A stretch of 63,035 nt of DNA, counting the filler, from Octopus bimaculoides (Eukaryota), in assembly GCF_001194135.2 (NCBI RefSeq). It is 6 parts of 6 records of this genome, joined end to end, with 100 filler letters (N's around TTAATTAATTAA, not from the genome) between each part and the next. Parts side by side here need not be neighbours in the genome. Positions count along the whole stretch, not along the records: positions 11,918 to 28,533 come from NC_068996.1; positions 28,634 to 45,929 come from NC_069006.1; positions 46,030 to 56,078 come from NC_068984.1; positions 56,179 to 61,092 come from NC_069007.1; positions 61,193 to 63,035 come from NW_026298669.1; 1 more part is not named here. One strand, 5' to 3'. A program made the position numbers and the translations under genes. This document shows positions 14,425 through 62,950 of the stretch, one piece after another. Numbering within the stretch: position 1 is the stretch's first letter; each line of letters begins with the position of its first letter. A model generated the notes under the pieces. That model saw only the letters and a program-made list of their open reading frames with translations, searched no databases and was not told the DNA's origin.

Positions 14425-14863
14425 TCGTAAAATATATTTGGCAACTAAATGTGACAGTCCTATAGAGGACGGTGTTACTGTTGCTTTTAGCCCCAGGAAG
14501 ACGATTCCGCACTGTTACTGTTTATCTCTCACTTAGAGACTTAATATAACTTATCTCTCTCTTTTCCGAGATTAGCGACAGTATGTCACTAGAGAAAGGA
14601 TATAGTATTTTGCGAGTGGAATGAGTTCTTCACCACTAGCCAGTGATTAACACACACTGAAGATGGGTAACTACCCAGAAACCTGGGTCTGTGTGTATCA
14701 TGTAAGACTAGAGATGGGAGCGATGACCTCCCTCACAAATACTAATCAGACACAGACTGTGTGTCATTGGCCGGCTGGAGGAGATGTCTTCCTGAGGCTA
14801 ACAACAACAGTAGCACTGTCCTCTTTTGGACAACCATGTTTAGTTGGCAAATATATTTTACGA
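14425..14863 (+). mobile_element. Element E1: ~78-bp imperfect inverted ends enclosing a hammerhead ribozyme
   Basis: Left arm 14425-14502 (tcgtaaaatatatttggcaactaaa...gttactgttgcttttagccccaggaagac) is the inverted copy of 14786-14863. Confidence 0.85.
14644..14700 (+). ncRNA. Type I hammerhead ribozyme with canonical core; predicted cleavage after GUC at 14689
   Basis: tgat-ta-ACACACA CTGAAGA TGGGT-aact-ACCCA GAAA CCTGGG TC TGTGTGT-atca: stems I, II and III, CUGANGA and GAAA all present, 2-nt bulge in extended stem I. Confidence 0.9.
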
Positions 14864-14987
14864 GTTTAGGAAACATAACCAATAAGCACCAGACATAATG
14901 AAAAAGTATTGGGATTGATTTATTCGACTAAAAGCTTTCAGGGTGGTGCTCCAGCATGGCCACTGTCCAACAATTGAACCAAATAAA

Positions 14988-15550
14988 AGGAGTGGCTGTG
15001 TGGTAAGTAGCTTACTTACCAACCACATTGTTCCGGGTTCAGTCCCGCTGCGTGGCACCTTGGGTAAGTGTCTTCTACTATAGCCTCAGGCCGACCAAAG
15101 CCTTGTGAGTGGATTTGGTAGACGGAAACTGACAGAAGCCCTTCGTATATACGTGTATGTATTTGTGTGTCTGTGTTTGTCCCCCTACCATCGCTTGACA
15201 ACTGATGCTGGCATGTTTACATCCCTGTAACTTAGTGGTTTGGCAAACGAGACCAGTAGAATAAGGCAGAGAATTGGCAGAAACGTTAGCACGCCGGGTG
15301 AAATGCTTAGCAGTATTTCATCTGTCTTTACATTCTGAGTTCAAATTCCACCAAGGTCAACTTTGCCTTTCATCCTTTCAGGGTCGATAAATTAAGTACC
15401 AAATTTCTGGGCCTTGTGCCTAGAGTAGAAAAAAAAGTAGAATAAGTACTAGGCTTACAAAGAATAAGTCCTGGTGGTCAATTTGTTCAACTAAAGGTGG
15501 TGCTCCAGCATGGTCGCAGTCAAAAGACTGAAACAAATAAAAGAATATAA
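14988..15550 (+). mobile_element. tRNA-derived SINE family A, full length, interrupted by a family C SINE
   Basis: A-box ggctgtgtggtaag, B-box ggttcagtccc; tail ...ctccagcatggtcgcagtcaaaagactgaaacaaataaaag. Confidence 0.9.
15266..15435 (+). mobile_element. tRNA-derived SINE family C nested in SINE A
   Basis: ggcagaaacgttagcacgccgggtgaaatgcttagc...gagttcaaattcc, A-tail, 11-bp TSD agtagaataag at 15255-15265 and 15436-15446. Confidence 0.9.
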
Positions 15551-15784
15551 GAGTAAAAGATTATAGTATTTTTGAAGGACTTGTAATCTCATAGATAATT
15601 TATTTTCAACTGATTATTCGCTCTACTCTTAATTACACTAAAAGTTCATTGTCTATAGGAAATATGATAAAGTAAATAAATAGAATTGGAAAGTATTTTG
15701 GTAATACAATATGGTTAGTGATTTCTTGGCTATAATCAGATACAGAGCAATTTGCTTTGCTTCAAAATGTCCTTTAGATCTTTA

Positions 15785-16135
15785 TTATCATCACCGTTTA
15801 ACATCCGCCTTCCATGCTAGCATGGGTTGGACGATTTGACTGAGAACTGACAAACCAGAAGGCTGCACCAGGCTCCAATCTGATCTGGCAGAGTTTCTAC
15901 AGCTGGATGCCCTTCCTAACACCAACCACTCCGAGAGTGTAGTGGGTGCTTTTTATGTACCATCAGCACAAGAGCCAGTCAGACAGTACTAGCATCGGTC
16001 ACGTTCGGATAGGGCTTTTTACATGTTACTGGCACAGGGGCCAGTCAGAGAGTACTGGCATTGGCCACGTCTGGATGGCACTTTTTATGTGTCACTGGCA
16101 TGGGGAGCCAATCAGGCAGGCCTGGCATTGTTCAC
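15785..16135 (-). mobile_element. RTE-associated SINE-like repeat (family B)
   Basis: catcaccgtttaacatccgccttccatgctagcatgggttggacg...ctggatgcccttcctaacaccaaccactccgagagtgtagtgggtgc. Confidence 0.8.
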
Positions 16136-16489
16136 TCAGTTTTTGTATATCTCTTTAACATTTTTGATACCAACCTAACTGTGGCTACCCTTTCTGGTTC
16201 TAAGCTTATTGTTTGTAATTGATCTAAATTAAAACCTTCTTCCATCAAAATTTCATGTTAATTTGTGTTCCAATCATCAGCTTAATTGCAACAAATTTAT
16301 TTCACTAAACTGTTTGTTATTTTAAAAATTAATTAAAACAAGGGAGGTGTATTTAGAAATATGGTAACAAAAATGAGTTAATAAACTTTATTCTTTCTTC
16401 CTTTTCTATCTGAGTCTTTCATAGTCAGTTTTGCAGTTACAATAATTTTGAGAAGATAAAATATACTCTAGGTATGCTGATACAAACAT

Positions 16490-17218
16490 TAACTGATGAT
16501 GATGATGACATTGATGGCGACGATGATGATGATGATGATGATGATGACGATGGTGATGACGATGATGACGATAGTGATGTTAATAATGGTGTTACTGATG
16601 GTGGTTGTGGTGGTTGTAGTGGTGGTGGTGGTGGTGATAATGCCACCACCAACACAAGTGGCACTGACAATGATGATGATGGCCATAAAAACATCAGCAG
16701 CAGTGATGTGATGAGGTAACGATGGTGATGATGATGTCGACTACAACGATGATGACATTGATGATGATGATGATTGTGATGGCGATGATGACGATGACGA
16801 CGACGACGGCAATGGTGACGATGATGATCTCGATGGCAAGGGAGGTAACAACAATGATGACAATGACAAACAAGAATAGGGATACTCACCCTGATGATGA
16901 TGACAATGATGATGGTTATGAGGATGATGATGACAAGAGTGNNNNNNNNNNGGTGGTGGTGGTGATAATGCCACCACCAACACAAGTGGCACTGACAATG
17001 ATGATGATGGCCATAAAAACATCAGCAGCAGTGATGTGATGAGGTAACGATGGTGATGATGATGTCGACTACAACGATGATGACATTGATGATGATGATG
17101 ATTGTGATGGCGATGATGACGATGACGACGACGACGGCAATGGTGACGATGATGATCTCGATGGCAAGGGAGGTAACAACAATGATGACAATGACAAACA
17201 AGAATAGGGATACTCACC
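16490..17218. repeat. Degenerate (GAT)n/(GGT)n low-complexity tract with an exact ~267-bp duplication across a 10-N gap
   Basis: 16624-16890 is identical to 16952-17218. Confidence 0.9.
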
Positions 17219-18214
17219 NNNNNNNNNNNNNNNNNNNNNNNNNNNNNNNNNNNNNNNNNNNNNNNNNNNNNNNNNNNNNNNNNNNNNNNNNNNNNNNNNN
17301 NNNNNNNNNNNNNNNNNNNNNNNNNNNNNNNNNNNNNNNNNNNNNNNNNNNNNNNNNNNNNNNNNNNNNNNNNNNNNNNNNNNNNNNNNNNNNNNNNNNN
17401 NNNNNNNNNNNNNNNNNNNNNNNNNNNNNNNNNNNNNNNNNNNNNNNNNNNNNNNNNNNNNNNNNNNNNNNNNNNNNNNNNNNNNNNNNNNNNNNNNNNN
17501 NNNNNNNNNNNNNNNNNNNNNNNNNNNNNNNNNNNNNNNNNNNNNNNNNNNNNNNNNNNNNNNNNNNNNNNNNNNNNNNNNNNNNNNNNNNNNNNNNNNN
17601 NNNNNNNNNNNNNNNNNNNNNNNNNNNNNNNNNNNNNNNNNNNNNNNNNNNNNNNNNNNNNNNNNNNNNNNNNNNNNNNNNNNNNNNNNNNNNNNNNNNN
17701 NNNNNNNNNNNNNNNNNNNNNNNNNNNNNNNNNNNNNNNNNNNNNNNNNNNNNNNNNNNNNNNNNNNNNNNNNNNNNNNNNNNNNNNNNNNNNNNNNNNN
17801 NNNNNNNNNNNNNNNNNNNNNNNNNNNNNNNNNNNNNNNNNNNNNNNNNNNNNNNNNNNNNNNNNNNNNNNNNNNNNNNNNNNNNNNNNNNNGGAATGAG
17901 AAGAGGAGGGAAAAGATACGCATAACATCGTCCATAAATCTTAAAAGATTCTAATGGTCCAATGTTTAATTTCAGAGGAAAAGGGATACCATTACCTAAC
18001 TTTCTCACACTGTCAGTTATCTAAATACCCCTAGGTAAACTGTGACCTGTAGAATGAAGTTGTCTTGCCTTGAGATGCAATGAAACCTTTGGCACATTGT
18101 CTAACACCTTATCCACCCAATACATGAAGGAAGTGCTATCCAATGATGATGATGATGATGATAAGGTCGATAGAAGAAGTGATAATATGATAGATATAGA
18201 CTGGAGATGAGCAG

Positions 18215-18810
18215 TGGATATTGTTTTCAAATTTTGGCACAAGGCCAGCAAAATTATAGGTAAATCAATTACATTGACCCCAGTGTTTTACTGATCCTTA
18301 TTAGTTTATCAACCTTGAAAGGATGAAAGGCAAGATCAGTCTTCGCAGAATTTGAACTCAGATTGTAAAGATGGACCAAATGTTGCATAGAATTTTGTCC
18401 AGCAGGCGTAGGAGTGGCTGTGTGGTAAGTAGCTTGCTTACCAACCACATGGTCCCGGGTTCAGTCCCACTGCATGGCACCTTGGGCAAGTGTCTTCTAC
18501 TATAGCCTTGGGCTGACCAAAGTCTTATNNNNNNNNNNGTGTGTGTGTTTGTGTGTCTGTGTTTGTCCCCCCACCATCGCTTGATAATCGATGCTGGTGT
18601 GTTTACGTCCCTGTAACTTAGCAGTTCGGCAAAAGAGACCGATAGAATAAGTACTAGGCTTCCAAAGAATAAGTCCTGGGGTTGATTTGCTCGACTAAAG
18701 GCGGTGCTCCAGCATGGCCACAGTCAAAAGACTGAAACGAGTAAAAGAGTAAAGAGTAAAGAGTAAAGAGTAAAGAGGGAGCATGCTATTGATTCTGCCA
18801 GCTTGCCATC
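18215..18810 (-). mobile_element. SINE family C, split by an inserted family A SINE
   Basis: 18215-18400 and 18781-18810 (gattctgccagcttgcc) join to one reverse-oriented copy. Confidence 0.75.
18405..18780 (+). mobile_element. SINE family A with (GAGTAAA)n tail
   Basis: ggcgtaggagtggctgtgtggtaagtagcttgcttaccaaccacatggtcccgggttcagtccc ... gactgaaacgagtaaaagagtaaagagtaaa. Confidence 0.9.
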
Positions 18811-20989
18811 TTACGGGCAGAAGATTTTGGCAAAATAGTCAACAGTTCGACTGAATGCCATTCACACACTTATATAAAATATATATATCGTCTGAGTTCA
18901 AATCCTGCTACGTGTTAAACCTTGCATTTCATACTCATGGGGTTGATAACATGAGCACCAGTAATATACATTGATTGATTTTGTCAGTTATGCCACAGCT
19001 TAATTCAAATTATTTGGTCTTGTGCCAACACAAAAGAAATCAATAATCGAGAGTAAAGATAAAAGTCAGGGGGGAAGGATACATCCTGGCAAACATACAA
19101 GATTAAGGGAATTCTAACACTTGTTGAAAATATTTTCATCAAGAACAACGTTGTCGATGTACCATTACCACCACCACTGCCACTGTCATCGTCATCATTA
19201 TTGCCGCCATCGTCATTATTGCTGTCGTCGTCGTCGTCGTCGTCATCGTCATCGTCATCATTATCATTTTAACATCTGTTCTTTAATGTTTTCACTACAA
19301 TAAACAGGTTGGCATTTGGCCCCATGCCATATACATGAGGTATAGGTGATGAGAAGTTCCACAGCAACCACAGGTAGGTACCATTTTATGGTAATCAGAG
19401 CATTTGTAATCATATTAATTGGATACAGTCTCTGATAATGACCTAATTCAATATAGTTCTTACATATCAATAAACATCAGATATTAACTAATACACCTTA
19501 TTTCTGCATTATTTTGTCTTTCGATTCATTTATTGTAATTTTGTACTTTAAGCCAAAGGAATATGAAACAAGGAAACAGAGAGGATTTTTTTTTTAGAGA
19601 TTACTTTTGTGAAAATACTCACTAATAAAAATCATTTGTGTTTTTCCTTTGACCAAACGCATATGCATACAAACACACATACATACATGTGTGTGTGTGG
19701 ATCAGTTTACATTACACATACCCATACATAGGTGTGAGTGCATGTATGTGCATGTGTGTGTGTGCATGTATGTATGTATGTATGTATGTATGTGTGTGTA
19801 TGTATGTGTATGTATGTGTGTGTGAGTGCATGTATGTGTGTATGTATATATGTGTGTATGTGTATGTGAGTGTATGTATGTGTGTGTGCATATATATGTA
19901 TGGTTGTGCAAGTGTGTGCATGTTGCATGTTTCTGTGAGTTTGTGAGTGTGTGAGTGCATGCATGTAAGTACATGTGTATCTGTGTATGTGTGGGAGTAT
20001 GTGTGTGTGTGTCTTTGAGTGTGTGAGTACAAGTGTGTAAGTGCATTGTGTGTGTGTGTGTGCATGCTCTTATCTGTATGGCCAAATGGTTAAGAAGTTT
20101 GCTTCACAATAATGAATGAAGTCTCAGAGCAAATCCCACTGAAGTGCAGCCTGGGTAAATGTCTTTTGCAACAGCCTCAGGTTCTGCCAAGACCTGTGAG
20201 GAAAACGAAGGAGGCAGAAACTGTGTGAAAGCACTTAAGGTAGCTTCTACCCGTAGTTCAAATATCCACCCTTATCACATACTGAATCATGCAGATTCTG
20301 CTTGAAAGTTACATTAACAGTATGAGTGTCTAAGGAATACTCAACCATCTTCATCATCATCATCATCATTATCATTTAACATCTGTCTAACATGCTGGCC
20401 CTGGTTTGAGCTGGTCAGCTAGGAAGCTGTCCAGACTCCAACTGTCTGTTTTGGCATGTTTTTTTTTTTTATGGCTGGATGCCCTTCCTAACACTAATCA
20501 TCTTAGAGTTAGCTGGATGCTTTCTCCATACCACAACCAGGGATGCATTTAAGCAGCACCAGCATGAGGGCATTTTATGTGGTGCCTGCACTTGTAAAGA
20601 ACAAACCTGCATGTATGGATGACAGAGATTTTATTTAGCTTGACTCCTCTTCTCCATGTACATGCTACTCCAATGAGCGGGTAATCCCATTGATAAAACA
20701 ACAGAATATTCATCACTGAAACTGATAGTGCTTTGTTTACATTCATGTGTCATTGTATCAACCAACCAGACTATTTGATGTTGTTATACACCGCTGGTCA
20801 CAATGCGCTTCCTCGCATTGTTTTACCACTCAAATGATGCTACCCAGCTGGCTAGGTGGGCAGGTCCATGTTCCTCATTGACAAAGGAAAGCCAATCTTT
20901 TGAAGGGTAACCCATTTACAGCTGATCAAGTAAAAACAAAAGATAAAGCTAGTTCCACTTCCCCAGTCCATTCAAATGAAGCACGTTTT

Positions 20990-21230
20990 TTTTTCACTCT
21001 AAAGAATACTAACTTATCTCAACAAGATGTAGATATTTCATTAGCAACTAGAATAACTGTTATCAAATTTAATAAGATTTGGACCCATAAGAACAGGGAA
21101 AATAACTTTGATATAACCATGGGGTCATGTGACTCTGAATCTTCTGGGTATATACATATCACATTAAAGAAGAATTTCAGAACATGGTAAGCATTGGTGA
21201 GATGCATTATTCACTGTAAGGTAATGGAGT
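20990..21230 (+). mobile_element. Penelope-like element reverse transcriptase remnant
   Basis: ORF 20900-21190 contains WTHKNRENNFDITMGSCDSE, resembling the W.KK...FDVTMGSYDGAE motif recalled from a PLE RT clade. Confidence 0.55.
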
Positions 21231-21299
21231 AAAGTTAGCTATGGGAGGAATAAAAAAAAAGATTTATAAGATTTTTTTTTTTCAAAAAAATAGATTTGT

Positions 21300-23570: not shown

Positions 23571-23754
23571 TGTACTAAAATTATAAGCTCCTTGCATTGT
23601 TTAGCACTGCTTGTTACTTTTCCCGGTTCATTTATTACATTCAAGCTAGAAAAACATGGTTTAAAGGCGTCAAAATTCACATGCATACAACTCTCTTTGA
23701 ATGGGTTAAATCTAACCTCAGAATTGTTTCAGACAATGCCAGATATTTGTTTAT

Positions 23755-23984
23755 GAAAGACCAGCAATCATCCATGCATATCAACCTCCCCTTTCCACAC
23801 CACTAATATTATCCAAGGGAAAGGTAAAGGCTGATACAACTTGGCACCTGTGACATTGCAACTCATTTCTACAGTTGAGTGAACTGGAATAACATAAAAT
23901 AAAGCGTCTTGCTCAAGAACACAACACACAGCCTGTTTTGAGGATTGAACTCACAACCTCATAATTGTGAGCCTGATGCTCTAA

Positions 23985-23990: not shown

Positions 23991-24026
<36 letters not shown>

Positions 24027-24029
24027 CAT

Positions 24030-24966: not shown

Positions 24967-25017
<51 letters not shown>

Positions 25018-37534: not shown

Positions 37535-37945
37535 ATGGAAACACCTAGCATCATAGCATCATAATTTTGAAATATCTGTAAAACCATCAAAAGCTTGTTT
37601 ATCTTTGTTTTTTTTATTTATTATTAGTGTTGTTTAATGTTTTGCTAAAATTGCTGTTTCTTTTCAAATATCATCAGAAAAAAGGTAATTAAAATTCCTT
37701 AAAATGACAGATCTATCGGACTTTCGGAGAGGTCAAATTGTTGGTGCTCGTATGGCAGGTGCTAGCATAACGAAAACAACCGAAATGTTTGGTGTATCAA
37801 GAAGTACTGTCTCGAAAGTAACGACAGCCTTTGAGAAAGAGGGTAAAACCTCCTCGTCGAAGCAAAACTCCGAAAGAAAACCAAAGCTTTCAGATAGGAA
37901 CCGTCGGAATCTTACGCGAATTGTTTAGAAAGGACCACAAAAGTA
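37535..37945 (+). mobile_element. Tc1 transposase N-terminal (paired-like HTH) fragment with 5' UTR
   Basis: ORF 37704-37928 MTDLSDFRRGQIVGARMAGASITKTTEMFGVSRSTVSKV...SERKPKLSDRNRRNLTRIV. Confidence 0.9.
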
Positions 37946-38455
37946 TATATGTATGCATGTATGTATAAAGTCTCAGTAAGAAAACTTACGAAGCACACAA
38001 GACAATAGTTTAGCATTCAGTGACACTATCTGAGATGCGTAACGCATAAGATAAGGCAGAACTGGCAGAGAGTTTCGGAGAACTGGGGAGGCTGGTTACA
38101 TTTCAGTGCCACTGTGTTTATTACTGATGTAAATATGTATGTATGTATGTATGTGTGTATGTATTGTATGAGTGTATATAGGTGCGTATCTATGTATGAA
38201 TGTTCGTTTGTCTGTCTGTTTGTATGTATGTGTGCGTGCGTGCATGCATGTGTGCATGTATGCATGGATGCTTGTATGTCTGTATGCTTGTGTATGTGCG
38301 TGCATGTATTATGGGTGTATGTGTGTATGTATGTTTGTATGTATGTATGTGTGTATGTAATGTATTGTATACATACACACATATATAGACACACACACAC
38401 ACACACTCACTAAAATAATATACATTATATATACGTTATTATACGCATATATAGG

Positions 38456-38792
38456 TACAGGCGTAGCTGTGTGGTAAGAAGCTTGCTTTCCAGCCACACG
38501 GTTCCGGGTTCCATCCCTCTGTGTTGCACCTTGGGCAACTGCTTTCTACTATAGCCTCGGACCGACCAAAGCCTTGTTAGTAGATTTGGTGGATGGAAAC
38601 CGAAAGAAACCCGTCGTATATTTATATACGACGGGCTTCTTTCAGTTTCCGTCTACCAAAATCCACTCACAAGGCTTTGGTCGGCCTGAGGCTATAGTAG
38701 AAAGCAGTTGCCCAAGGTATCATGCTGTGGGACTGAACCCGGAACCATGTTGTTGGTAAGCAAGCTACTTACCACACAGTCACTCCTGCGCC
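38456..38792. mobile_element. Two family A SINE heads in tail-to-tail inverted orientation
   Basis: 38456-38620 (+) and 38625-38792 (-) meet at cgtatatttatatacg. Confidence 0.9.
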
Positions 38793-39579
38793 TATATATA
38801 TATATATATNNNNNNNNNNNNNNNNNNNNNNNNNNNNNNNNNNNNNNNNNNNNNNNNNNNNNNNNNNNNNNNNNNNNNNNNNNNNNNNNNNNNNNNNNNN
38901 NNNNNNNNNNNNNNNNNNNNNNNNNNNNNNNNNNNNNNNNNNNTATATATACATGAATACGTACATCATATCCATATATATGTGTGTGTTTGTGTGCGCG
39001 TCGATGTGTATGTGCGTGTATATGTGGTGTGGTGTTTATGTACATATGTGTGTGTATGTATGTATGCTGGAGTAAGATAACATTCGTCCCCTTGCCGCTG
39101 TTGGTACATGACGTCTTTATGTCGCTTATCTCGCCATAACAACAACAAACCACAGCATGCCTGATGCCAGCCTGGCTTAATACAACTGTAATAACCGAGA
39201 GAATCGGAGAAAATTCAACGTTTATCTATTGTTTCTTCTGAATGTCAATTGTTGCCAATTATTGCCCTGATTTCCTTCCTGCGATTTCTTCTCCCAGCGT
39301 CTAGCAACGTTTAAAGGACATTAAAAGACAATCGAAAAGAGAGAGATAGAGAGAGTGGGGAGAAAGTGCAAGAGACAGACAGACAGATAGAGAGGGAAGG
39401 AGAGAGAGATAGAGAGAGTGGGGAGAAAGTGCAAGAGACAGACAGAGAGGGAAGGAGAGAGAGATAGAGAGTGAAGGAGTAAGAAAGAATTACAATTATT
39501 TTCTTCAATTGCTAAGCTAACTTCAAATTTAACCTTTGACCCCGTCCTTATGACATCGGCGTAAAAACCCAGTGAGAAA

Positions 39580-47215: not shown

Positions 47216-47290
47216 GACACACATATATATATATATATATATATAAGCAATGTTAATTCTCTAAATGAAGTATTAACAGTAACTGCACAA

Positions 47291-48080
47291 TAAAGTGTAG
47301 TATGTTGCCACTTAAGTGTGGCTGACCCCTAGGGGTGGATGTTACTGTTGCTTTTAGCCCCAGGAGGACATNNNNNNNNNNNNNNNNNNNNNNNNNNNNN
47401 NNNNNNNNNNNNNNNNNNNNNNNNNNNNNNNNNNNNNNNNNNNNNNNNNNNNNNNNNNNNNNNNNNNNNNNNNNNNNNNNNNNNNNNNNNNNNNNNNNNN
47501 NNNNNNNNNNNNNNNNNNNNNNNNNNNNNNNNNNNNNNNNNNNNNNNNNNNNNNNNNNNNNNNNNNNNNNNNNNNNNNNNNNNNNNNNNNNNNNNNNNNN
47601 NNNNNNNNNNNNNNNNNNNNNNNNNNNNNNNNNNNNNNNNNNNNNNNNNNNNNNNNNNNNNNNNNNNNNNNNNNNNNNNNNNNNNNNNNNNNNNNNNNNN
47701 NNNNNNNNNNNNNNNNNNNNNNNNNNNNNNNNNNNNNNNNNNNNNNNNNNNNNNNNNNNNNNNNNNNAATTAACATTGCTTGTTTTCACCTTTTCGATAT
47801 CAGTGAAGAAATTCACTGGAAAAGAAGATATAAGATTGCCAGGTTTTTGTCTCTCTCGCCAAGGTCAGTAGCTATCGAACGCCGACGAAGGGAAATAACC
47901 CTGAAATCCGGATCCGTTCGTGCTGCAGATCGTGGTGAGAGGGATAACTTCCCTTGGCAAACAGGACACAGTCGTGTGTCGATAAGCCAGCTGGAGGAGA
48001 TGTCCTCCTGGGGCTAAAAGCAACAGTAACATCCACCCCTAGGGGTCAGCCACACTTAAGTGGCAACATACTACACTTTA
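47291..48080 (+). mobile_element. Element E2: 81-bp perfect inverted ends (left one abuts a gap) enclosing a hammerhead
   Basis: 47291-47371 is the exact reverse complement of 48000-48080; arms share gttactgttgcttttagccccagga with E1. Confidence 0.8.
47868..47926 (+). ncRNA. Type I hammerhead ribozyme with U4-to-C core change; predicted site AUC at 47914
   Basis: gtagc-tat-CGAACG CCGACGA AGGG-aaataa-CCCT GAAA TCCGGA TC CGTTCG-t-gctgc; palindromic stem III (ATCCGGAT). Confidence 0.8.
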
Positions 48081-48559
48081 TATATATATATATATATACA
48101 CATACATACACATACATAAAGCTGAACACACACTCTCTCTCACACACATACACCCATACAACTATCATCTTTCTTATACACTTACACACATAAATACATA
48201 TACATATATTTTTTTCTGTATATATGTATTTATGTATGTATGTACGTATGTATGTGTGTGTGTGTATGTAGATTTGCATGCATTTGTGTATATCTGTGTG
48301 ACTGCATATATACAATATGTATCTTTGTGTATGTATATGTATTTGTATGTATGTATTTATGTAACCCATGCCAGCATGGAAAGCGGATGTTAAACGACAA
48401 TGATGATGGTGATGTATGTACGCATTTAAGTATATGCATATATGTGTATGTACCCTCTGTATCAGTCAGTGGATGAAGTTCTTTTCTCACTCACCGCCAT
48501 TTTCTTTTCTTGTTTGTTTCTAAAGATACAGAAAATCGTTTACCTATTTATGATTATGT

Positions 48560-48790: not shown

Positions 48791-48934
48791 CATGTATGCA
48801 TGTATGTATGTGTGTGCAAGTGTGTGTTTCACTATTCAGCAGACATGAAAGTCAATGTGTTGTGTGTGTGTGTGTGTGTGCATGCATACGTATGTATGTA
48901 TGTTTGGGATATATATTTGATAGTAGTTTACACA

Positions 48935-50525
48935 GCCTAAAAATGCTTGTAACAATATGATGTTCGTTTAGGAAGCATATTCCATACTGTTGTTGCCCTT
49001 GATAAGTCTGGCCTTCGTCCCCTTTTGTCAATTACTTGACCCAAATATTTGATTTTTTCCATCAAAATTCACTTTTCCTCTTTTAGTCTAAACCGCTATT
49101 CATTTATTTTTCCAAATACTTTTTTAATATGCTTTAAGTGTTGCTCCGCCGTCTCACTCTTTATCAAAATACCATCAAGATAAGTGATAGCTAAGTTGCA
49201 ATTATTTAATATTGTGTCCATCACTTATTGGAATATGGCAGGTGCCACTTTTACTCCAAAAGGAAGCTGCTTGAAATTATACAATCTATGCTGTGTGTTG
49301 ATTGTTAAAAGGTTTGTGCAATCTTCCTCTACCTGTATCTGTAGATAGGCCTCAGAGAGGTCTAACTTTGAGAAAATTTTTCTTCCATTGACCCAAATAT
49401 TTGATTATTTTTTTCTTTACATAAACCATTGGAGCTGGTCAGTCTGAACAGTCAACTTTTTCAATTATAGCTAGACTTTATAGTCTTTCTAGCTTTTTAT
49501 TGAGCTGGTCTAATGTCACAAATGGCACGTTCCATTTGGACCTAAAACCAGGTGTTGCCTTTTCTTTTGCCACATGCCTTACTTTTGTTTTAGTAAAACA
49601 GCCTAATCCTTCCAAAAACATTTGGAAACAATCTTTTAATATTTTGTCTCAGTTCTTCGACTTCATTCAAACTTTTAACCATACCAACTACATTTTCACA
49701 GAAAACACTAATGGAAGTATCCCACATTTTAAATAACTCCATGCAATCTGTGCCAAATAGGTGTAGTGATTTTTTTCAGCACATAAATGATTGTCCTTTT
49801 CGTTTCACCGCAAAAAGTTACATTGCAAATATATTTGCCGATGATGTATAATTTCTTTTCTGTAACACCATATGCTACTTTATTTGATTTAAATAATTTT
49901 GGCTTACGGATTCACCACCATGTTTCTTCCTTTATGATAGTGATGTCACTACCCATGTCTAATTGCATCAAAATGAAACACTAGTGGTTTCGATTCTCAC
50001 CTTTATGAATTTTCTGTTCATTGTACAAACTTTTCTCTCTGATGACAAACTATTTATTTTTTCTCGTTTGGTCCAATTTTTTTGTCATCTTAGTTCTGCA
50101 GTGCAATTTAATGTGTCTTGCATTCCCAAAATGAAAACATTTCACTTTTTTGAACAGACACTCTTTTCTCAGGTGCCTACCACCACATGCCTTACGTGGG
50201 TTTATCTCCTGATATATATCATGGTTTTTGTGAAACACTTTATCCATCTTCTAACTTTTTCACGCTGGTTTTATCTGTAAACAATCTCTGTGTTGGATTA
50301 CTTCTGTGTCGTGCTTATTTTTAATATCATATTGCACTCTTCTGATACTTTCTGGAGAATTGTATCCTGGTTCATTTACAGCTTTGCAAGAATTTTCATT
50401 TGGACTTCTCTGTCGTTTTTAGCAGTAAGTCTCTGAGCAAAAATCAGGCTTCTCAAAACCAAAAAGGAGAAAGCTGATTCAAAGACAACTGATCCAAGCC
50501 CTCACTGGAACTGTAAAACTTTCCA
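48935..50525 (-). mobile_element. Decayed Ty3/gypsy gag-protease-RT
   Basis: In order on the minus strand: LIFAQRLTAKNDREVQMKILAKL (gag), CGGRHLRKECLFKKVKCFHFGNARHIKLHC (zinc knuckle), MQLDMGSDITII (protease), LDLSEAYLQIQV..LPFGVKVAPAIFQ..YLDGILI (RT), YLGQVIDKRGRRPD. Confidence 0.9.
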
Positions 50526-53392: not shown

Positions 53393-53959
53393 NNNNNNNN
53401 NNNNNNNNNNNNNNNNNNNNNNNNNNNNNNNNNNNNNNNNNNNNNNNNNNNNNNNNNNNNNNNNNNNNNNNNNNNNNNNNNNNNNNNNNNNNNNNNNNNN
53501 NNNNNNNNNNNNNNNNNNNNNNNNNNNNNNNNNNNNNNNNNNNNNNNNNNNNNNNNNNNNNNNNNNNNNNNNNNNNNNNNNNNNNNNNNNNNNNNNNNNN
53601 NNNNNNNNNNNNNNNNNNNNNNNNNNNNNNNNNNNNNNNNNNNNNNNNNNNNNNNNNNNNNNNNNNNNNNNNNNNNNNNNNNNNNNNNNNNNNNNNNNNN
53701 NNNNNNNNNNNNNNNNNNNNNNNNNNNNNNNNNNNNNNNATGCAATGGAAGAATTAGACTTTTCTGTTATATTTTCTGTAATGAACTGGAATACCTATGA
53801 TTCGAATTTCATCAGAATTGCAGATGAGAGTTCTTTCCCTCTTTACACACCATAAAAAAATTCTAATCATGGCACATGTATCCCATACTACTGATCTTTA
53901 TGCGCAGATTCCAAAATTCCAGTCTTTGGAAGCTGTTCAAAGGTTTTTGCTCCCGAAAA

Positions 53960-56045
53960 ATGGAAGTCATGGAGCTCTAAAGTGTGGGAGTTAAGGCCCC
54001 TATTGGGGGTGGGGGTGTTAATGTCAACCTGAGAAGTTGAATTGTTGAGAATCTTTTTGACTTGGATGTTATATCTATTGTTCGAATTTCTTTGAAATAG
54101 GAAATATATGTATGTTCACTGGATTTGTAAAAGAGAGCAAAGCTACAGGAAACCAAAAGACAAATGATCACAATAAGCAGTCAGCTAGCCTACCCTAGTC
54201 GTTACTACTCACCAATGTACAATTCCTCACCATACAGGTGACAGGCACAGCCGTAAGATGCATTACGGATCTGTAGCAATTGGAAGGGCGTGACCCAACT
54301 GAAATAAACATTAACAACTGTGTGACGTGAGGGCTAAGGGGAAATGAAAGTATCACTTCTGGAGTTTGCAAATGACCACTATACCGATAGGTAACTGGAC
54401 AGAATAAATTTCCAATCTATAAATGTCTGAATAACCAGTCACTCATCTAGGAAGGCCTTGAAATCAATGTTACCACCTGAGGACTATGTGTGACTCAGTG
54501 ATAATAAAAAGACTCATAGGAGATCTGCAACCAAATAACTTTACTCAACACTTTGCAACTGAATCAGTGGAGGCAAGGATGCCTCTCATTTACTTGACAA
54601 TTTATGCACCACATTACAGAAATCACAATCTAAGTATATCTCAAAGGAAACTCTTACATTGTTGTACCATTGAATTACAAATAACGCTCATCTTTTGTGC
54701 TCGGTTGACCCTACAGCTTCCAAGAGTACAACTGCATTCGTCTTTGCTTAGATAAAATGACTAAATTGTGGGTGTTAAGTCCCCATGAAGAGGTCTTTCT
54801 AACTTCTAAGGAGATGAAATTTTAGAAATATTACTTCATTCGTGTCTAATATGTATGGTTAAAATTTCATCAACAGCAAAAATATATGAATTTTCATGAG
54901 GGTTATGGCCCTTGTGCATAGAATATAATTACCAAATTTCGTAAAGATCCATTCAGTACTTTTGACCTAGTTTTGGATCATAAAAATGACTAAAATTTGG
55001 GAGTTAAGGCCCCCATTAGGGGGTCTTAGAATCTTTATGAAAAGTGGAAAGTTTGAGAATACATCTTGATATGTGTCAATTACCCAGGGTTGAAATTTCA
55101 TCAACATCGAAAATGTATGAATTTTCATGGGAGTTCTTCCCCCTTTAAACCATCACAAATTTAAAGTAAACATACTGCATTATACCCGCCCTTATGCATT
55201 GAATCTAAGTTCCAAATATCATAAGGATCCATTCAGTAATTTTGGTCCATGAAATTGTCTGAAGCACACAGTATTACTCTTCTCCGTAGACTTGGATTTT
55301 GTGTTCCAAATTTCTATCAGTTTCTTCTTGTCAAACCAGTAAGTTATGGGGATGTAAATAAACGAACAGCAGTTATGAAGCAGTGATGAGGGAAAAACAG
55401 AGATAAAGACACAAAGATTTCGATTTCACTTGCCTCAACAGGTCTTCGCAAGTAGAGTTTAGTTTCCAACGAAGGAAAGGTACGCATAAGTGGGCTGGTT
55501 ACACCCCATGCAAAGGCCACAGGTTATGGTCTCAACTTGGCTTGCTGGGTCTTCTCACGCACAGCATATTTCCAAAGGTCTCGATCACTAGTCATTGCCT
55601 CGGTGAGGCCTAATGTTCGAAGGTCGTTCTTCACCACCTCATCCCAGGTCTTCCTGGGTCTACATTTTCCACAGGTTCCCTCAACTGCTAGGGTGTGGGA
55701 TTTTATCACACAGTTATCCTCATCCATTCTCGCCACATGACTATACCAGCACAATCGTCTCTCTTGCACATAACAACTGATGCTTCCTAGATCCAACTTC
55801 TCTGTCAAGGTACTTACACCCTGTCGAATATGCACACTGACCCATGGTTGAAATTTCATTAACATCGAAAATTTATGAATTTTCATGTGGGTTCTGCCCC
55901 CTTTAAGCCATCTCAAATTCAAACCAAACATACTGCATTATACCTGCCCTTATGCATTGAATCTAAGTTCCAAATATCATAAGGATCCATTCAGTAATTT
56001 TGGTCCATGAAATTGTCTGAAACACACAGCATTACCCTTCTCCCT
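53960..56045. repeat. Modular interspersed repeat (possibly Helentron/HINE-like) with internally reiterated blocks
   Basis: Blocks gggagttaaggcccc, aaatttcatcaaca..aaaat.tatgaattttcatg and ccaaat.tc.taa.gatccattcagta recur at ~53985, 54770-55030, 55086-55285 and 55846-56045; the class assignment is from memory only. Confidence 0.55.
55440..55830 (-). mobile_element. RTE-clade LINE 3' fragment
   Basis: ORF 55524-55931: EKLDLGSISCYVQERRLCWYSHVARMDEDNCV..VEGTCGKCRPRKTWDEVVKNDLRTLGLTEAMTSDRDLWKYAVREKT. Confidence 0.9.
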
Positions 56046-57742: not shown

Positions 57743-57860
57743 TTGTTTAGCTCTTTCTCCTCTCTCTCTTTATCTAGTTCTTTCTCCTCTCTCTCTTTGT
57801 CTAGTTCTTTCTCCTCTCTCTCTTTGTCTAGTTCTTTCTCCTCTCTCTCTTTGTCTCTGT
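57743..57860. repeat. 27-bp pyrimidine-rich tandem repeat, about 4 copies
   Basis: tctagttctttctcctctctctctttg units inside a 1.4-kb CT-rich tract. Confidence 0.85.
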
Positions 57861-58303
57861 CTATCTGTCTTTCTCTATTTCGCATATTTCATTCCTTCAT
57901 TTCCCTTCTCTCTTTCTCTCTCACTCCATATCATCAGATGTCGGTGATGGCAAACGAAGAATGGTTTTTGCTCACTGACGGTGACAGTAGTAATAGTAGT
58001 AGCGATCGTAGTAGTAGTAGTAGTAGTAGTAGTAGTAATAATAATAATAATAATAATAATAATCTTAAGTCTTGGCAGCGTCAGCGTTGACGTTAATAAG
58101 GGTGGCTGGTATTTGACGTTAGCAGCATTGACGGTGACGACGATTATGATGATGATGATGATGATGATGATAATAGTGATGATGATGCCAGCCAGAAGCC
58201 AGTTTGCTCAGAAAACAAACCAAACTTTGTAGTTCCTACTACTATATGTCACTTACTAAATTTAGACTGGAAGTTTTGCAATGTTTGGTGTGAGTTCTAG
58301 TGT

Positions 58304-58334
<31 letters not shown>

Positions 58335-58912
58335 TTATATATATATATTTTACACTTATGTACATATATACACCTTGTATGTGTGTGTATATATGATTTA
58401 CATGCATATTGCGTATGTGTAATAGAATTATGTATACACATATCTATCTAATAACATTTGTGTGAGTGTGTGTAGGATGTCTCAGAATTAACTGTAGATA
58501 GTTAATTCTGTGACCCTGTATAATAACATTTGCGTGTGTGTGCATCTTCATCATGCTTTAACGTCCATTTTCCATGCCGGCATGGGTTGTTGCGCGCGTG
58601 CGTGCGTGCGTCTATTTATATATATAACACTTGTGTATCTTACCTTCATACATATATTTGTAGTTCTTGTAAGTAATATTTCTGATGATGGTGATGTGAT
58701 GAGTAAAATTTTTTATGTAAGGTATGAAGTATAATCCTGGGATTAATGAATAAATGAAAACCTCTTGATTTGTTTTGATGTGAATAAGATATTACTGAGA
58801 AATTGAAGAAGTATTTGTTTTCGGATTGATGAGACATTCCTGCTGAAGTGTAAAACTGGATATCTTTTCTCCAAGAAACGGTTGTGAACTGGTAGTCATT
58901 AAGAGCATTTTG

Positions 58913-59212
58913 CAAAACTTGGTACACTCTGTTGGGGGAAAGTTGGTACCCTCTGTTGGGCGGGAAAGTTGGTACCTGAAACTTGGTACCCTCTGTTGGG
59001 AGAAAGTTGGTACCCTCTGTTGGGCGGGAAAGTTGGTACCTGAAACTTGGTACCCTCTGTTGGGCGGGAAAGTTGGTACCTGAAACTTGGTACCCTCTGT
59101 TGGGAGAAAGTTGGTACCTGAAATTTGGTACCCTCTGTTGGGCGGGAAAGTTGGTACCTGAAATTTGGTACCCTCTGTTGGGGGGAAAGTTGGTACCTGA
59201 AATTTGGTACTT
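58913..59212. repeat. Modular minisatellite rich in GGTACC (26- and ~40-bp units)
   Basis: Modules gaaagttggtacc, tgaaa(c/t)ttggtacc and ctctgttggg(cgg/a/gg) in varying order. Confidence 0.95.
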
Positions 59213-59297
59213 GAGTTGGGGGAAGGGTTCGTACCCTGTGTTGGAGGAAAACTTGATCTCCTTATATTTGCCAACTCACCTATTTCCAAAAAAGGTT

Positions 59298-59922
59298 AAA
59301 GTTTCCCCACAGTTGGACATGTTTTCATGGAATATTGTTATGGTCAGGCCCACTTAGAACTATTACAAAATATCAAGACTAGGAGACAAACATATGTACA
59401 TACATACATGTATGTGTGTGTGTGTGCACTAAATCCACTGTAGTGTATTTGCTTCACCTATTTTCAGTCTCCTTTGTATATCTTCTGCATTCAATGCCTG
59501 TGTCTTTTTTAGCCATGCAACAATGCACTTCATTGTGCAAACTTGGTACCATCTAACCTTACACTAAAACACAGAACCAGCAGAAAACTTGGTACCCTTA
59601 TATTCACCAACCCTTGCTTGTTTTCAAGCAGTGTTAAATTTTCCTCACAGTTGGACATGTTTTTGCATGGAAGATTGAAACTGAACAACTCTGCTTGCAT
59701 TATGGTTGGGCCCACTTAGAACTAATGCAAAATAACAAGACTAGGAGACATACACACTCATACGTGTATGTACACACACACACACACACTGGTTTCTAAT
59801 ATTATGAATCCACTGGAATATATCTGCTTAATTTATCTTCAGTTTCCTTTGTATATCTTCTGCTTTCAATGTCTGTGTCTTGTTAACCATGCAGCATTGC
59901 ACTTCATTGTGTAAACCTTGTA
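59298..59922. repeat. Diverged tandem duplication of ~260-290 bp
   Basis: cacagttggacatgtttt...cccacttagaacta...caagactaggagaca...ctttgtatatcttctgc...gcacttcattgtg at 59298-59550 and 59637-59922. Confidence 0.9.
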
Positions 59923-59924
59923 CA

Positions 59925-60314
59925 TTTTTTTTGTTGGCACTCCGTCGCTTACAACGTTGAGGGTTCCAGTTGATCCGATCAACGGAACAGCCTGTTAGTG
60001 AAATTAACGTGCAAGTGGCTGAGCACTCCACAGACACGTGTACCCTTAACGTAGTTCTCGGGGATATTCAGCGTGACACAGTGTGACAAGGATGACCCTT
60101 TGAATTACAGGCACAACAGAAACAAGAAGTAAGAGTGAGAGAAAAGTTGTGGTGAAAGAGTACAGCAGGGTTCACCACGATCCCCTGCCGGAGCCTCATG
60201 GAGCTTTAGGTGTTTTCGCTCAATAAACACTCACAACGCCCGGTCTGGGAATCGAAGCCGCGATCCTGTGATCGTGAGTCCGCTGCCTTAACCACTGGGC
60301 CATTGCGTCTCCAC
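59925..60314 (-). mobile_element. Full-length tRNA-derived SINE with poly(A) tail and 12-bp TSD
   Basis: Head gtggagacgcaatggcccagtggttaaggcagcggactc..gcttcgattccc; TSD aaaccttgtaca at 59913-59924 and 60315-60326. Confidence 0.95.
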
Positions 60315-60704
60315 AAACCTTGTACAATCTACCCTCTATTGAGAATGAGAGAACCTCTTCATCACCAGCAGACATAGTAGCTCCCTGAGCTTTTTCTGTT
60401 ATTCTAGCAATTATGCCTTCAGAATATCCTCATATGTGGCTGATGAAATCACCTAGGTAACAGAAAACACGGATTATTTTTATGGGATCTGCTACATGTT
60501 GGTGAGAACTTTACTGTTGCCTGACTGCCAGCAGTGCCTACACAGCTGACAGCTCACTATGAAATCTTTTATATCTGTTTTTCTTACTGTGACCCATCTG
60601 CATCTCTTGTGCATCCATAGTTTACACTAACATTGGCATGGCTGCATTGTTAAGGAGCTCACTTGGTAACCATCTAGTTTCAGGTTCAGTCCCACTGTGC
60701 AGCA

Positions 60705-61055
60705 CCTGTCAGACAGCTGAAAGCGTCTGAGCAGGTCTCTGAGGCATTTGCATCCCCGTCTATTCCTATCTCTGCTCACGTAGTCTAGATGCATGTCCAG
60801 GGTAGCATTCCAGTCCCCCCACTAAAAGTAAAGGATGAGACGTTCCTAGGAATACTTCTAGACGTCGAAAGAAATCCGGCCGACCTGTTAAAGGCGGTGT
60901 GTAGACTGATACGAGTCGAAAAGCACACCCATTGCTGCCGTCAACATCCAGGACGACCAGTCTACCCTCCAGGACTACGAATATTGTCTTTACTTCGAGA
61001 TCCAGACTCTTGCGAAAAAGTACCACCGTGCCACTACCACCCATTCTCGGCAGAC
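60705..61055 (-). mobile_element. L1/Tx1-type AP endonuclease fragment
   Basis: GTVVLFRKSLDLEVKTIF..EGRLVVLDV..FRLVSVYTP..RPDFFRRLEVFL..LLLVG, then GDWNATLD after a frameshift. Confidence 0.85.
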
Positions 61056-61869
61056 AGTATATATAGTATATATAGTATATATATATATATATNNNNNNNN
61101 NNNNNNNNNNNNNNNNNNNNNNNNNNNNNNNNNNNNTTAATTAATTAANNNNNNNNNNNNNNNNNNNNNNNNNNNNNNNNNNNNNNNNNNNNACTAGGGA
61201 CATTGGAGGCATATTCAGGTGACATTACGTGTCAATATGTAAGGCCGTTGTTGTTGTTATTGTTGATTCTTGCATTGTTGTTGTTGTTGAGATTGTTTGG
61301 CCCCAAATCTATCCCCGTCGAACTATCTTAATACCAATTTTGTGACCATCACGTCATTTTCGCTATGTTCAATGTATGGTGCTCGGGATACACCATTATC
61401 CAGCTGGCATATTCTTCGTTCTCTAAAGGAGTTGCTGTAGGATGTGAGGGGTATTTAGCTGCTATTTCTAAGAAGTCTAGTGAACCCGCTGAGGTTCCTT
61501 CGGAGAGTAGATGGGTGAAGAGAACTGGAGGCGGAATAAGTTAGTGATAGTAAGAATGGTTGGTTATGCCATGTTGATAATGTTATTGATGATGTTGATG
61601 ACAATTTGCATCTTTTATGGTGCAGCCGATGAATAGCTATGAGTCAATGCTGCTCAAATCACAAGATATCATCTATAGCTAAATTGTGCGTAATTTTCTT
61701 AAAATATTATAAAACATACAAAAAGAATCTTGCAAATAACTATAACAAAAAAGCAGAATGACTAACAATTTGGAACGTGTCTGATTCTGTTCAAGTGCTT
61801 TCGCTTATTACAGCTTCTTGAACACACGTGTTATGAGTTAATTTTTATAGAAGAACTTCCTTATGGCAT

Positions 61870-61905
<36 letters not shown>

Positions 61906-62497
61906 NNNNNNNNNNNNNNNNNNNNNNNNNNNNNNNNNNNNNNNNNNNNNNNNNNNNNNNNNNNNNNNNNNNNNNNNNNNNNNNNNNNNNNNNNNNNNNN
62001 NNNNNNNNNNNNNNNNNNNNNNNNNNNNNNNNNNNNNNNNNNNNNNNNNNNNNNNNNNNNNNNNNNNNNNNNNNNNNNNNNNNNNNNNNNNNNNNNNNNN
62101 NNNNNNNNNNNNNNNNNNNNNNNNNNNNNNNNNNNNNNNNNNNNNNNNNNNNNNNNNNNNNNNNNNNNNNNNNNNNNNNNNNNNNNNNNNNNNNNNNNNN
62201 NNNNNNNNNNNNNNNNNNNNNNNNNNNNNNNNNNNNNNNNNNNNNNNNNNNNNNNNNNNNNNNNNNNNNNNNNNNNNNNNNNNNNNNNNNNNNNNNNNNN
62301 NNNNNNNNNNNNNNNNNNNNNNNNNNNNNNNNNNNNNNNNNNNNNNNNNNNNNNNNNNNNNNNNNNNNNNNNNNNNNNNNNNNNNNNNNNNNNNNNNNNN
62401 NNNNNNNNNNNNNNNNNNNNNNNNNNNNNNNNNNNNNNNNNNNNNNNNNNNNNNNNNNNNNNNNNNATATATATATATATATATAAGGCATCTTTAT

Positions 62498-62950
62498 GCA
62501 ATATAAAGCCAAAAAGGAAAAAATCTCTGTTGCCACTAATTGTGACTGATGGTGCAGGGTAGCCCTTATATTGATAGAAATAGGGGCTAAAAACTCTTAG
62601 GGCTGCATAAAGTACATGTCTGAGTATTGACAGGGGAGATAATCGCCCCACAGCGAGCGAATTCATCATACTTGTATAGTTTCGCTTTGAATTAAAAGCT
62701 CATCAGTGATGACTACTCTATCGTTATATGGTTTGGCTACATCCTGCCTGTCAGTATATAATATTTGCCATACGAATCAATGGTTGATTCAGCAAAATGG
62801 CAATGGGGGAATTATAAGATAAAGATGTCGGTTATAAGCAATATAAAAACCAAAGAGGGAAAATTCAATTGTCACTAATTGTGACTGAGTGTACCGGGTA
62901 GTACCTTCGTTGCTAGAAAAAGAAGGTAAAAGCCCTTAGGGATGTCTAAG
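62498..62950 (-). mobile_element. Element E3: ~340-bp unit plus part of a second direct copy, containing a hammerhead
   Basis: gcaatataaa..ccaaa..gg.aaa..ttg(c/t)cactaattgtgactga..g.ac/c.gggtag at 62498 and again at 62838. Confidence 0.65.
62659..62718 (-). ncRNA. Type I hammerhead ribozyme with canonical core; predicted cleavage after GUA (between 62669 and 62668)
   Basis: Minus strand gagt-ag-TCATCA CTGATGA GCTTT-taattc-AAAGC GAAA CT-ataca-AG TA TGATGA-attc. Confidence 0.9.

What the first reader, a model, noticed from the sequence alone, without database searches (positions are those of the whole stretch)
14425..62950. A structure-conserved family of short hammerhead-ribozyme elements in inverted and tandem arrangements (E1, E2, E3)
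Seen: three type I hammerheads whose stems differ completely in sequence yet all pair. Stem I is ACACACA/TGTGTGT, CGAACG/CGTTCG and TCATCA/TGATGA; stem II is TGGGT/ACCCA, AGGG/CCCT and GCTTT/AAAGC. Each has an extended stem I with a small 5'-strand bulge or loop. Each is followed by a G-rich hairpin (gggag-cgatgac-ctccc; aggga-taact-tccct; gggg-cgattatct-cccc) and, about 140-160 nt after the cleavage site, a related terminal motif (E2 cagccacacttaagtggcaaca vs E3 cagtcacaattagtggcaaca, 19/22; E1 weaker). E1 and E2 also share a gacaca/tgtgtc hairpin and carry their last ~80 bp as an upstream inverted copy, while E3 repeats its end directly at 340 bp. Established: Penelope-like pLTRs and metazoan non-LTR retrozymes carry type I hammerheads, and PLE pLTRs occur in both direct and inverted layouts. 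Inference: these are non-coding, non-autonomous self-cleaving RNA elements under structural selection that a sequence-only masker would call MITEs. I cannot tell whether this family is already described.
Basis: partly seen in the sequence, partly recalled or inferred. Interest (0 to 1): 0.85.

Follow-up and report, generated by a model that had tools for sequence, protein, structure and literature searches.

The report
Octopus retrozymes with Penelope-type insertion footprints
Three short non-coding repeats in what is likely an octopus genome each carry a hammerhead-ribozyme motif and an inverted partial copy of themselves, so they are likely ribozyme-bearing parasites copied by a Penelope-like retrotransposon enzyme, a known kind of element whose helper has only been proposed.

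Summary
The three type I hammerhead motifs are real (3 found; 0 in 100 shuffles at the stricter settings). Each lies in an ORF-less unit of 340-359 nt whose end runs on into its own start. All three loci, not two, have an inverted partial copy at the 5' side. In E1 and E2 that arm carries a 45-55 nt tail. E1 has a perfect 13-bp target duplication; E2 and E3 end in (TA)n. This is the footprint of Penelope-like (PLE) insertions, not of MITEs. RNA reads on E2 show the predicted head-to-tail junction (48 of 895 and 42 of 660 reads; unit 345 nt), and family variants mostly spare the predicted fold. Against activity: no read ends pile up at the cut, E2 has a U4C core change, and RNA variant frequencies track DNA, as for read-through. 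Cleavage, circles and the helper element are not shown. E1 and E2 are one family (61% alike); E3 is linked only by short motifs. Verdict: non-LTR retrozyme-type elements, likely PLE-mobilised. The kind is known; the footprint was not found described for retrozymes in the papers I read.

The parts
14357..14369 (+). E1 left target-site duplication (13 bp, AGTTTAGGAAACA)
   Evidence: identical to 14863-14875; the empty site is colinear with other copies of the host repeat
14370..14424 (-). E1 tail (55 nt) on the inverted arm; a copy of the unit's own start
   Evidence: 48/55 identical to 14505-14559
14425..14502 (-). E1 inverted copy of the unit's 3' end
   Evidence: 65/78 identical to 14786-14863
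14505..14863 (+). E1 direct unit, one whole monomer (359 nt, GC 0.42)
14650..14696 (+). E1 type I hammerhead motif; predicted cut after 14689; self-complementary stem III
14863..14875 (+). E1 right target-site duplication
47245..47289 (-). E2 tail (45 nt) on the inverted arm, abutting (TA)n
   Evidence: 47259-47289 matches at 30/31 the letters that RNA reads carry across the junction
47290..47371 (-). E2 inverted copy of the 3' end, cut off by an assembly gap (47372-47767)
   Evidence: 82/82 identical to 48000-48081
47768..48081 (+). E2 direct unit (314 of 345 nt visible), ending in (TA)n
47876..47920 (+). E2 type I hammerhead motif, U4C core, palindromic stem III ATCCGGAT; predicted cut after 47914; predicted extended stem I about 47847-47947
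48047..48068 (+). terminal hairpin motif shared with E3 (62548 and 62887, minus strand) and, weaker, E1
62485..62834 (-). E3 last unit with tail, ending in (TA)n
62663..62712 (-). E3 type I hammerhead motif, canonical core, non-palindromic stem III; predicted cut after 62669
62835..62944 (-). E3 upstream partial unit (direct, pLTR-like, period 339-340)
   Evidence: 74% over 112 bp
62960..63035 (+).
   Evidence: 47/65, score 49 against 18.0 +/- 3.2, 0 of 500 shuffles

Best explanation
These are ORF-less 340-359-nt hammerhead-bearing units of the non-LTR retrozyme type that are likely copied into new sites in trans by the reverse transcriptase/endonuclease of a Penelope-like element. Shown: hammerhead motifs, unit length, head-to-tail junction in DNA and RNA, inverted arms, tails, a 13-bp target duplication, (TA)n ends. 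Inferred steps: (1) a head-to-tail RNA is made, by read-through or as a re-ligated circle; (2) the PLE protein binds the hairpin module downstream of the hammerhead; (3) it nicks AT-rich DNA on both strands about 13 bp apart; (4) it starts cDNA at one of two internal sites 45-55 nt apart, one strand giving the direct arm and the other the inverted, truncated arm with its tail; (5) the arms are joined head to head. Because the inserts run intact across the predicted cut site, the template cannot have been a cut linear monomer. The hammerhead would cut multimers into monomers, in E1 and E2 likely only as a dimer and slowly; this is untested.
For: Layout at 3 of 3 loci matches PLE insertions in print: inverted truncated copy plus 30-40-bp tail (PMC8557442); inverted pLTR, 31-bp tail and 8-10-bp TSDs (PMC3846280); tail as the stretch between two internal RT start sites, both strands cut and extended, AT-rich targets (PMC11167929). 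13-bp TSD with a colinear empty site. Junction reads 48 of 895 and 42 of 660, up to 66 nt on the short side. E2 circle folds at z -8.5. Of 40 listed variants on the E2 fold, 21 are unpaired, 13 keep the pair and 6 break it, against 14.6 +/- 2.5 expected; a double change in stem III keeps the palindrome. Size, GC 0.39-0.45 and canonical hammerhead fit non-LTR retrozymes (PMC7229834; PMC4209133). No RT or GIY-YIG hit in or next to the units among 266 frames scanned. (TA)n-targeting PLEs are listed for Octopus (PMC8557442 supplement).
Against: No helper PLE was found; no genome is held. Nine window motifs gave no hit in the Octopus Hydra or Naiad consensus records, and their ends showed no convincing likeness by eye. 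No locus in the window shows two hammerheads in tandem. No pile of read starts or ends and no dip at the E2 cut. RNA variant frequencies follow DNA (r 0.91-0.92), both orientations are equal, and the level is 57-69 reads per million: no sign of abundant circles from a few loci. Tails are longer than the 30-40 bp in print. E1 and E3 circles fold only at z -2.1 and -2.8, and E3's stem I is not favoured in its whole unit. The variant test uses 40 of 75 rows, linked variants and a fold derived from E2 itself.
Confidence: 0.75

Rival explanations
1. They are solo pLTRs or 5'-truncated ends of autonomous PLEs, not a self-standing non-autonomous unit.
For: Same layout as autonomous PLE insertions. 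Read depth doubles over 47985-48066, where reads bring other upstream sequence, so the 3' module is shared with other elements.
Against: The tail is the unit's own start, not an ORF start. Reads close the unit on itself at 345 nt. The hammerheads are canonical (stem I 6-7, stem II 4-6 bp), not the minimal PLE type with a 7-8-bp helix II. The other upstream sequence in those reads resembles E1 by eye.
Confidence: 0.1
2. They are pieces of a hammerhead satellite spread at the DNA level or by another retrotransposon class (LINE, DIRS, Helitron-like), and the inverted arms are later rearrangements.
For: Retrozymes form satellites, and local tandem amplification is proposed in bioRxiv 10.64898/2026.07.22.740005. 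E2's 396-N gap could hold one more monomer (345 + 31 + about 20).
Against: The same inverted-arm layout occurs at three loci of different sequence; E1's TSD encloses both arms; the tail sits on the inverted arm as in PLEs. DIRS lack TSDs (PMC8969392); no poly(A) or simple-repeat LINE tail is seen at E1.
Confidence: 0.08
3. They are MITEs moved by a transposase, and the hammerhead is a passenger.
For: Short, non-coding, inverted repeats near both ends; two lie in (TA)n.
Against: In E1 the outermost left sequence is inverted to an internal stretch (14505-14559), not to the right end. The TSD is 13 bp. E3 has a direct partial tandem. The unit continues head to tail in reads.
Confidence: 0.03
4. 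The E1 and E3 hammerheads were kept by host selection after insertion, for example as RNA-processing signals.
For: If the arms were identical at insertion, neutral decay would leave the motif passing in only 12-17% (E1) and 3-7% (E3) of 5000 simulations.
Against: Arms copied from different RNA molecules explain this as well: E1's TSD is still perfect (13% expected), and its inverted arm is nearer E2 (14/65 differences) than its direct arm (20/65). The loci were picked for intact motifs. No host gene was tied to them.
Confidence: 0.04

Closest known systems
Metazoan non-LTR retrozymes (Cervera and de la Pena 2020, PMC7229834; mussel units 350-390 bp, axolotl 330 and 350 bp)
   Same: Canonical type I hammerhead, 340-359-nt ORF-less unit, GC under 50%, TSD longer than 4 bp, head-to-tail continuity, predicted self-paired fold.
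   Different: Here the copies are dispersed, with one visible hammerhead each, and carry an inverted arm and tail; 'inverted' has 0 occurrences in that paper's main text. Cleavage and circles were shown there and are not shown here.
Penelope-like elements with inverted pLTR and tail (Adineta Pen2a, PMC3846280; Anolis Poseidon, PMC11167929; Naiad and Hydra clades, PMC8557442)
   Same: Inverted truncated arm at the 5' side, tail on one arm, partial direct tandem, TSD of about 10 bp, microsatellite targets, hammerhead upstream of the inferred RT start sites.
   Different: No ORF; canonical rather than minimal hammerhead; tail 45-55 nt; no sequence link to a named PLE found.
Xenopus retrozymes as non-autonomous PLE derivatives (bioRxiv 10.64898/2026.07.22.740005) and non-autonomous Chlamys elements such as MRC1 (PMC8557442)
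   Same: Same proposed relation: ORF-less units that depend on a PLE.
   Different: The preprint's evidence is co-occurrence and pLTR sequence likeness; it sampled no mollusc. The evidence here is the insertion footprint. Chlamys elements mostly lack hammerheads.

Membership tests
non-LTR retrozyme | canonical type I hammerhead (helix I about 6 bp, II about 4 bp, short helix III) | tested here: met
   definition in PMC4209133. E2 carries U4C.
non-LTR retrozyme | non-coding monomer of 150-450 bp, GC under 50% | tested here: met
   359, 345 and 340 nt; GC 0.42, 0.45, 0.39; no Pfam hit in frames overlapping the units
non-LTR retrozyme | tandem array with two or more hammerhead units | tested here: inconclusive
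   One hammerhead per locus; head-to-tail junction in reads; E2's gap and the window end hide parts; no genome held
non-LTR retrozyme | TSD longer than 4 bp when present | tested here: met
   13 bp at E1; not readable at E2 ((TA)n) or E3 (window end)
non-LTR retrozyme | highly self-paired monomer | tested here: met
   Predicted only: E2 z -8.5; E1 -2.1 and E3 -2.8 are weak
non-LTR retrozyme | self-cleavage | not testable with these tools
   Indirect only: no read ends piled at the cut
non-LTR retrozyme | accumulates as circular RNA | tested here: inconclusive
   Junction reads fit circles, tandem or partial-tandem transcripts alike; the junction is also in DNA
non-LTR retrozyme | no PBS or PPT | not tested
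   Not searched for
autonomous Penelope-like element | RT plus GIY-YIG ORF | tested here: not met
   266 N-free frames of 55 aa or more; the only RT hit is a Ty3/Gypsy-like remnant 1.1 kb from E2
autonomous Penelope-like element | direct or inverted pLTR layout | tested here: met
   Inverted arm at 3 of 3 loci, direct partial tandem at E3
autonomous Penelope-like element | tail at one end | tested here: met
   55 nt (E1) and 45 nt (E2), longer than the 30-40 bp in print
autonomous Penelope-like element | minimal hammerhead (helix II 7-8 bp, helix I 4-5 bp) | tested here: not met
non-autonomous PLE derivative | sequence likeness to the ends of an autonomous PLE of the same genome | tested here: inconclusive
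   Only the consensus set in the PMC8557442 supplement could be looked at: none of 9 motifs in an Octopus record
MITE | terminal inverted repeats at both outer ends | tested here: not met
   E1's left end is inverted to an internal stretch
MITE | transposase family sharing the ends | not testable with these tools
   no genome held

The most novel reading that the evidence does not exclude
The template is the re-ligated circle itself: a PLE dimer primes both target strands on two different circular RNAs at two fixed internal sites, and E1's direct arm, which begins and ends at the same point of the unit and is exactly one turn long, is the footprint of an RT that went once round a circle. That would be genomic evidence for circRNA-templated retrotransposition by a PLE and would give the hammerhead a role (making the circles) in a very high-copy octopus family.
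Probability: 0.2. Interest if true: 0.75.

Novelty: new variant of a known kind. Interest (0 to 1): 0.45.

Why it matters
Which enzyme moves animal retrozymes is open: the 2020 paper calls PLEs a strong candidate and the 2026 preprint argues from co-occurrence and pLTR likeness. The role of hammerheads in PLE biology is also open. These loci carry the PLE-specific footprint (inverted arm, tail, TSD) on ORF-less hammerhead units, an independent line of evidence, and they name two candidate RT start sites. The E2 family looks young and very numerous (7435 DNA contigs lay on 317 bases), so the question can be tested by one genome-wide alignment and a few RNA assays. It also warns that repeat pipelines may file such elements as MITEs or unknowns.

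Tried and rejected
Rfam on the whole window was swamped by microsatellite matches to miRNA models; the repeat finder likewise. No genome is held, so copy number, orthologues and the helper PLE could not be searched. Two exact-pattern scans of metagenome contigs found 0 matches. Three look-ups in earlier findings gave nothing. A profile of the three units found no further copy in the window. The RT fragment near E2 was rejected as a partner: it is Ty3/Gypsy-like. Two by-eye likenesses between E3 and Hydra-1_Obim were rejected: short blocks near its 5' end, whose rough hand-scored alignment is at shuffle level, and a 7-bp inverted pair at E3's inner junction, which follows from the inversion itself. 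The absence of variants from the core and stem II is not significant alone (0 of 38 places in 19 of 314; P 0.08). A covariance model was not built: three sequences, one barely alignable, would only restate the input. Priming by microhomology was considered; PMC11167929 reports initiation without homology, and the 1-6 shared bases at these ends do not decide it. The supplement of PMC7229834 could not be read and the preprint's supplements were not seen; either could list cephalopod retrozymes.
Full report
Observation. The window is microsatellite-rich animal DNA with 7420 Ns. The nearest named relatives of a retrotransposon fragment in it come from Octopus sinensis (80%) and O. bimaculoides (76%, 74%) (3 of 5 hits), so the host is likely an octopus. 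Local dinucleotide shuffles gave a hit in 2 of 100 at the loosest setting and 0 of 100 at three stricter ones. Rfam reports only E3, below its gathering score. All three are of the canonical type (stem I 6-7 bp, stem II 4-6 bp, short stem III), not the minimal type of PLE pLTRs (PMC4209133, part 1 of 4 read). Stem III is self-complementary in E1 and E2 (self-duplex -9.8 and -10.9 kcal/mol, no hairpin) but not in E3; that paper ties such stems to cleavage as dimers. E2's core is CCGACGA; U4C considerably lowers activity in vitro yet permits viroid infectivity (PMC3088659, passages).

Anatomy. The inverted arms of E1 and E2 do not stop at the unit's end. They go on into a copy of the unit's own start: 55 nt in E1 (48/55 identical to 14505-14559) and 45 nt in E2. 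So end is followed by start, and the unit is a closed, permuted monomer: 359 nt in E1, 345 in E2, 339-340 in E3. E1's whole insert, both arms, is enclosed by a perfect 13-bp duplication, and the empty site aligns across the junction with three other copies of the host repeat in the window. E2's two outer ends and E3's visible end abut (TA)n. E3 has an inverted arm too, at 62960-63035, running off the window (47/65; 0 of 500 shuffles). E1 and E2 are colinear round the unit at 61%, with both halves above shuffles (0 of 500 each). E3 shares the terminal hairpin motif with E2 (20/23; 1 of 500) and a post-cut stretch with E1 (33/49; 1 of 500), but its upstream part is at shuffle level (217 and 368 of 500): a distant lineage at most. 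No PLE ORF is near. Of 266 N-free, non-repetitive frames of 55 aa or more, the one RT hit is a broken Ty3/Gypsy-like remnant.

Reads. Of 24 runs listed, 19 hold half or more of E2's sampled words. I laid 4 of them on 47768-48084 at 85% likeness: two raw RNA runs of one study (about 6% of each read), one contig set guessed to be RNA, one guessed to be DNA. The predicted junction is there: 48 of 895 and 42 of 660 reads go from 48081 back to 47768 through 31 letters that match E2's own tail at 30/31, with up to 66 and 57 nt on the short side, more than E2's tail could supply. Three reads join opposite strands (47865/48004), as another inverted-arm copy would. The DNA set lays 7435 contigs and shows the same tail as a loose end in 42, so the family is large and varied and the junction exists in DNA; the summed depth is no copy number. 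Of 75 variant rows 40 were shown. On the predicted E2 fold 21 are unpaired, 13 keep their pair and 6 break it, against 14.6 +/- 2.5 breaks when the same changes are placed at random (P about 2e-4). The variants are linked and the fold comes from E2, so the P value is too kind. T47907C and A47912G occur at like frequencies (20/246 and 27/250; 9/182 and 12/183) and together keep both the stem III pair and the palindrome. C47914A (57-60%) keeps a cleavable triplet by the NUH rule (recalled).

Results against activity. No place shows a pile of read starts or ends, and depth does not dip at the cut. RNA variant frequencies follow DNA (r 0.92 and 0.91 over 40 rows), both orientations are equal, and the level is 69 and 57 reads per million. 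That fits read-through of many copies, or DNA carry-over, as well as circles. Library strandedness and poly(A) selection are unknown, and circles could have been lost. The Anolis PLE study also found no reads ending at its hammerhead cut, and 8 of 9 Xenopus retrozyme dimers did not cleave in vitro. Cleavage should not be assumed. The G-rich hairpin is not a shared fold: p 0.18, 0.00 and 0.89 in E1, E2 and E3.

Mechanism. PLE insertions are described with an inverted 5'-truncated copy next to the unit and a 30-40-bp tail, and with microsatellite bias (PMC8557442, passages and supplement). An Adineta copy has an inverted pLTR, a 31-bp tail on one arm and a 9-bp TSD, and pLTRs there moved other DNA in trans (PMC3846280, passages). 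Purified Anolis Poseidon protein cuts and extends both strands of AT-rich DNA and starts RT at two internal sites downstream of the hammerhead; the tail is the stretch between them (PMC11167929, parts 1-2 of 4). E1 is that structure without an ORF. I infer that a PLE protein recognises the hairpin module after the hammerhead and primes both nicked strands, giving a direct and an inverted arm. The start sites lie about 167-174 nt after the cut and 45-55 nt beyond that. A cut linear monomer could not template an insert that crosses the cut site intact, so the template was uncut multimer or a re-ligated circle. E1's direct arm starts and ends at the same point of the unit, as one turn of a circle would give; this is one case, and E3 is longer than one turn. 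E1's arms differ by 15% and E3's by 23-24%, yet the motifs and the TSD are intact, which neutral decay gives in 12-17%, 3-7% and 13% of cases. Arms copied from different RNA molecules is the simplest reading; picking intact loci also contributes.

Comparison. It works like a non-autonomous PLE. As a non-LTR retrozyme it meets the hammerhead, size, GC and TSD tests (PMC7229834, parts 2-4 of 6 and passages); tandem arrays and circles are inconclusive, cleavage untested. It is not an autonomous PLE (no ORF) and not a MITE (no terminal inverted repeats at both outer ends; PMC8969392, passages). A 2026 preprint already proposes that retrozymes are non-autonomous PLE derivatives (parts 1-3 of 5 read), as does a review (PMC7761336, passages). 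Octopus has (TA)n-targeting Hydra and Naiad PLEs, but I found no sequence link to them, so the helper is unnamed.

Novelty. Ten library searches showed no paper describing an octopus retrozyme or this footprint on retrozymes; most listed papers were seen only as listings. The giant squid genome paper counts 235 Rfam hammerhead-1 hits without analysis (PMC6962438, passages). The 2026 O. vulgaris repeat annotation has 0 occurrences of 'hammerhead' or 'ribozyme' (PMC13282606, passages). Dfam, Repbase, subscription journals and two supplements were not seen, so the family may be catalogued under another label.

Verdict. Observation confirmed with corrections; interpretation partly supported. New variant of a known kind; confidence in the best explanation 0.75; interest 0.45.

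Noticed in passing
window about 48900-50150 (-): Broken Ty3/Gypsy-like pol remnant (RVT_1, E 2e-8 in 49228-49404); nearest named relatives are Octopus K02A2.6-like proteins.
   Followed up: partly
window 37689-37925 (+): Helix-turn-helix frame (HTH_23, E 3.6e-7), likely a Tc1/mariner-type transposase remnant (label recalled).
   Followed up: no
window 14290-14960; copies at 12950-13110, 15176-15258, 18562-18747, 55333-55397: The repeat into which E1 inserted; copies about 69-74% alike.
   Followed up: partly
window 14988-15116, 18404-18526, 38440-38806: A second dispersed repeat, 82-90% alike, with an inverted pair 71 nt apart; looks like a tRNA-derived SINE (recalled; ARAGORN finds no tRNA).
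   Followed up: no
window 47992-48007 and 14777-14792: E1's inverted arm, and the one opposite-strand joint in reads (48004), end near the loop of the same hairpin; E2's arm reaches the gap there too. Possibly a preferred stop.
   Followed up: no
window 47372-47767: The 396-N gap is about one monomer plus the missing 31 nt plus 20; E2 may hide a collapsed tandem dimer.
   Followed up: no
reads on 47950-48059: Both RNA runs hold loose ends of what seems a truncated copy inside one expressed host transcript (46 and 41 reads at one end, 61 and 22 at the other).
   Followed up: no
window 343-579 (+): Weak SPRY match below the curated cut-off (E 7e-4); probably chance.
   Followed up: no
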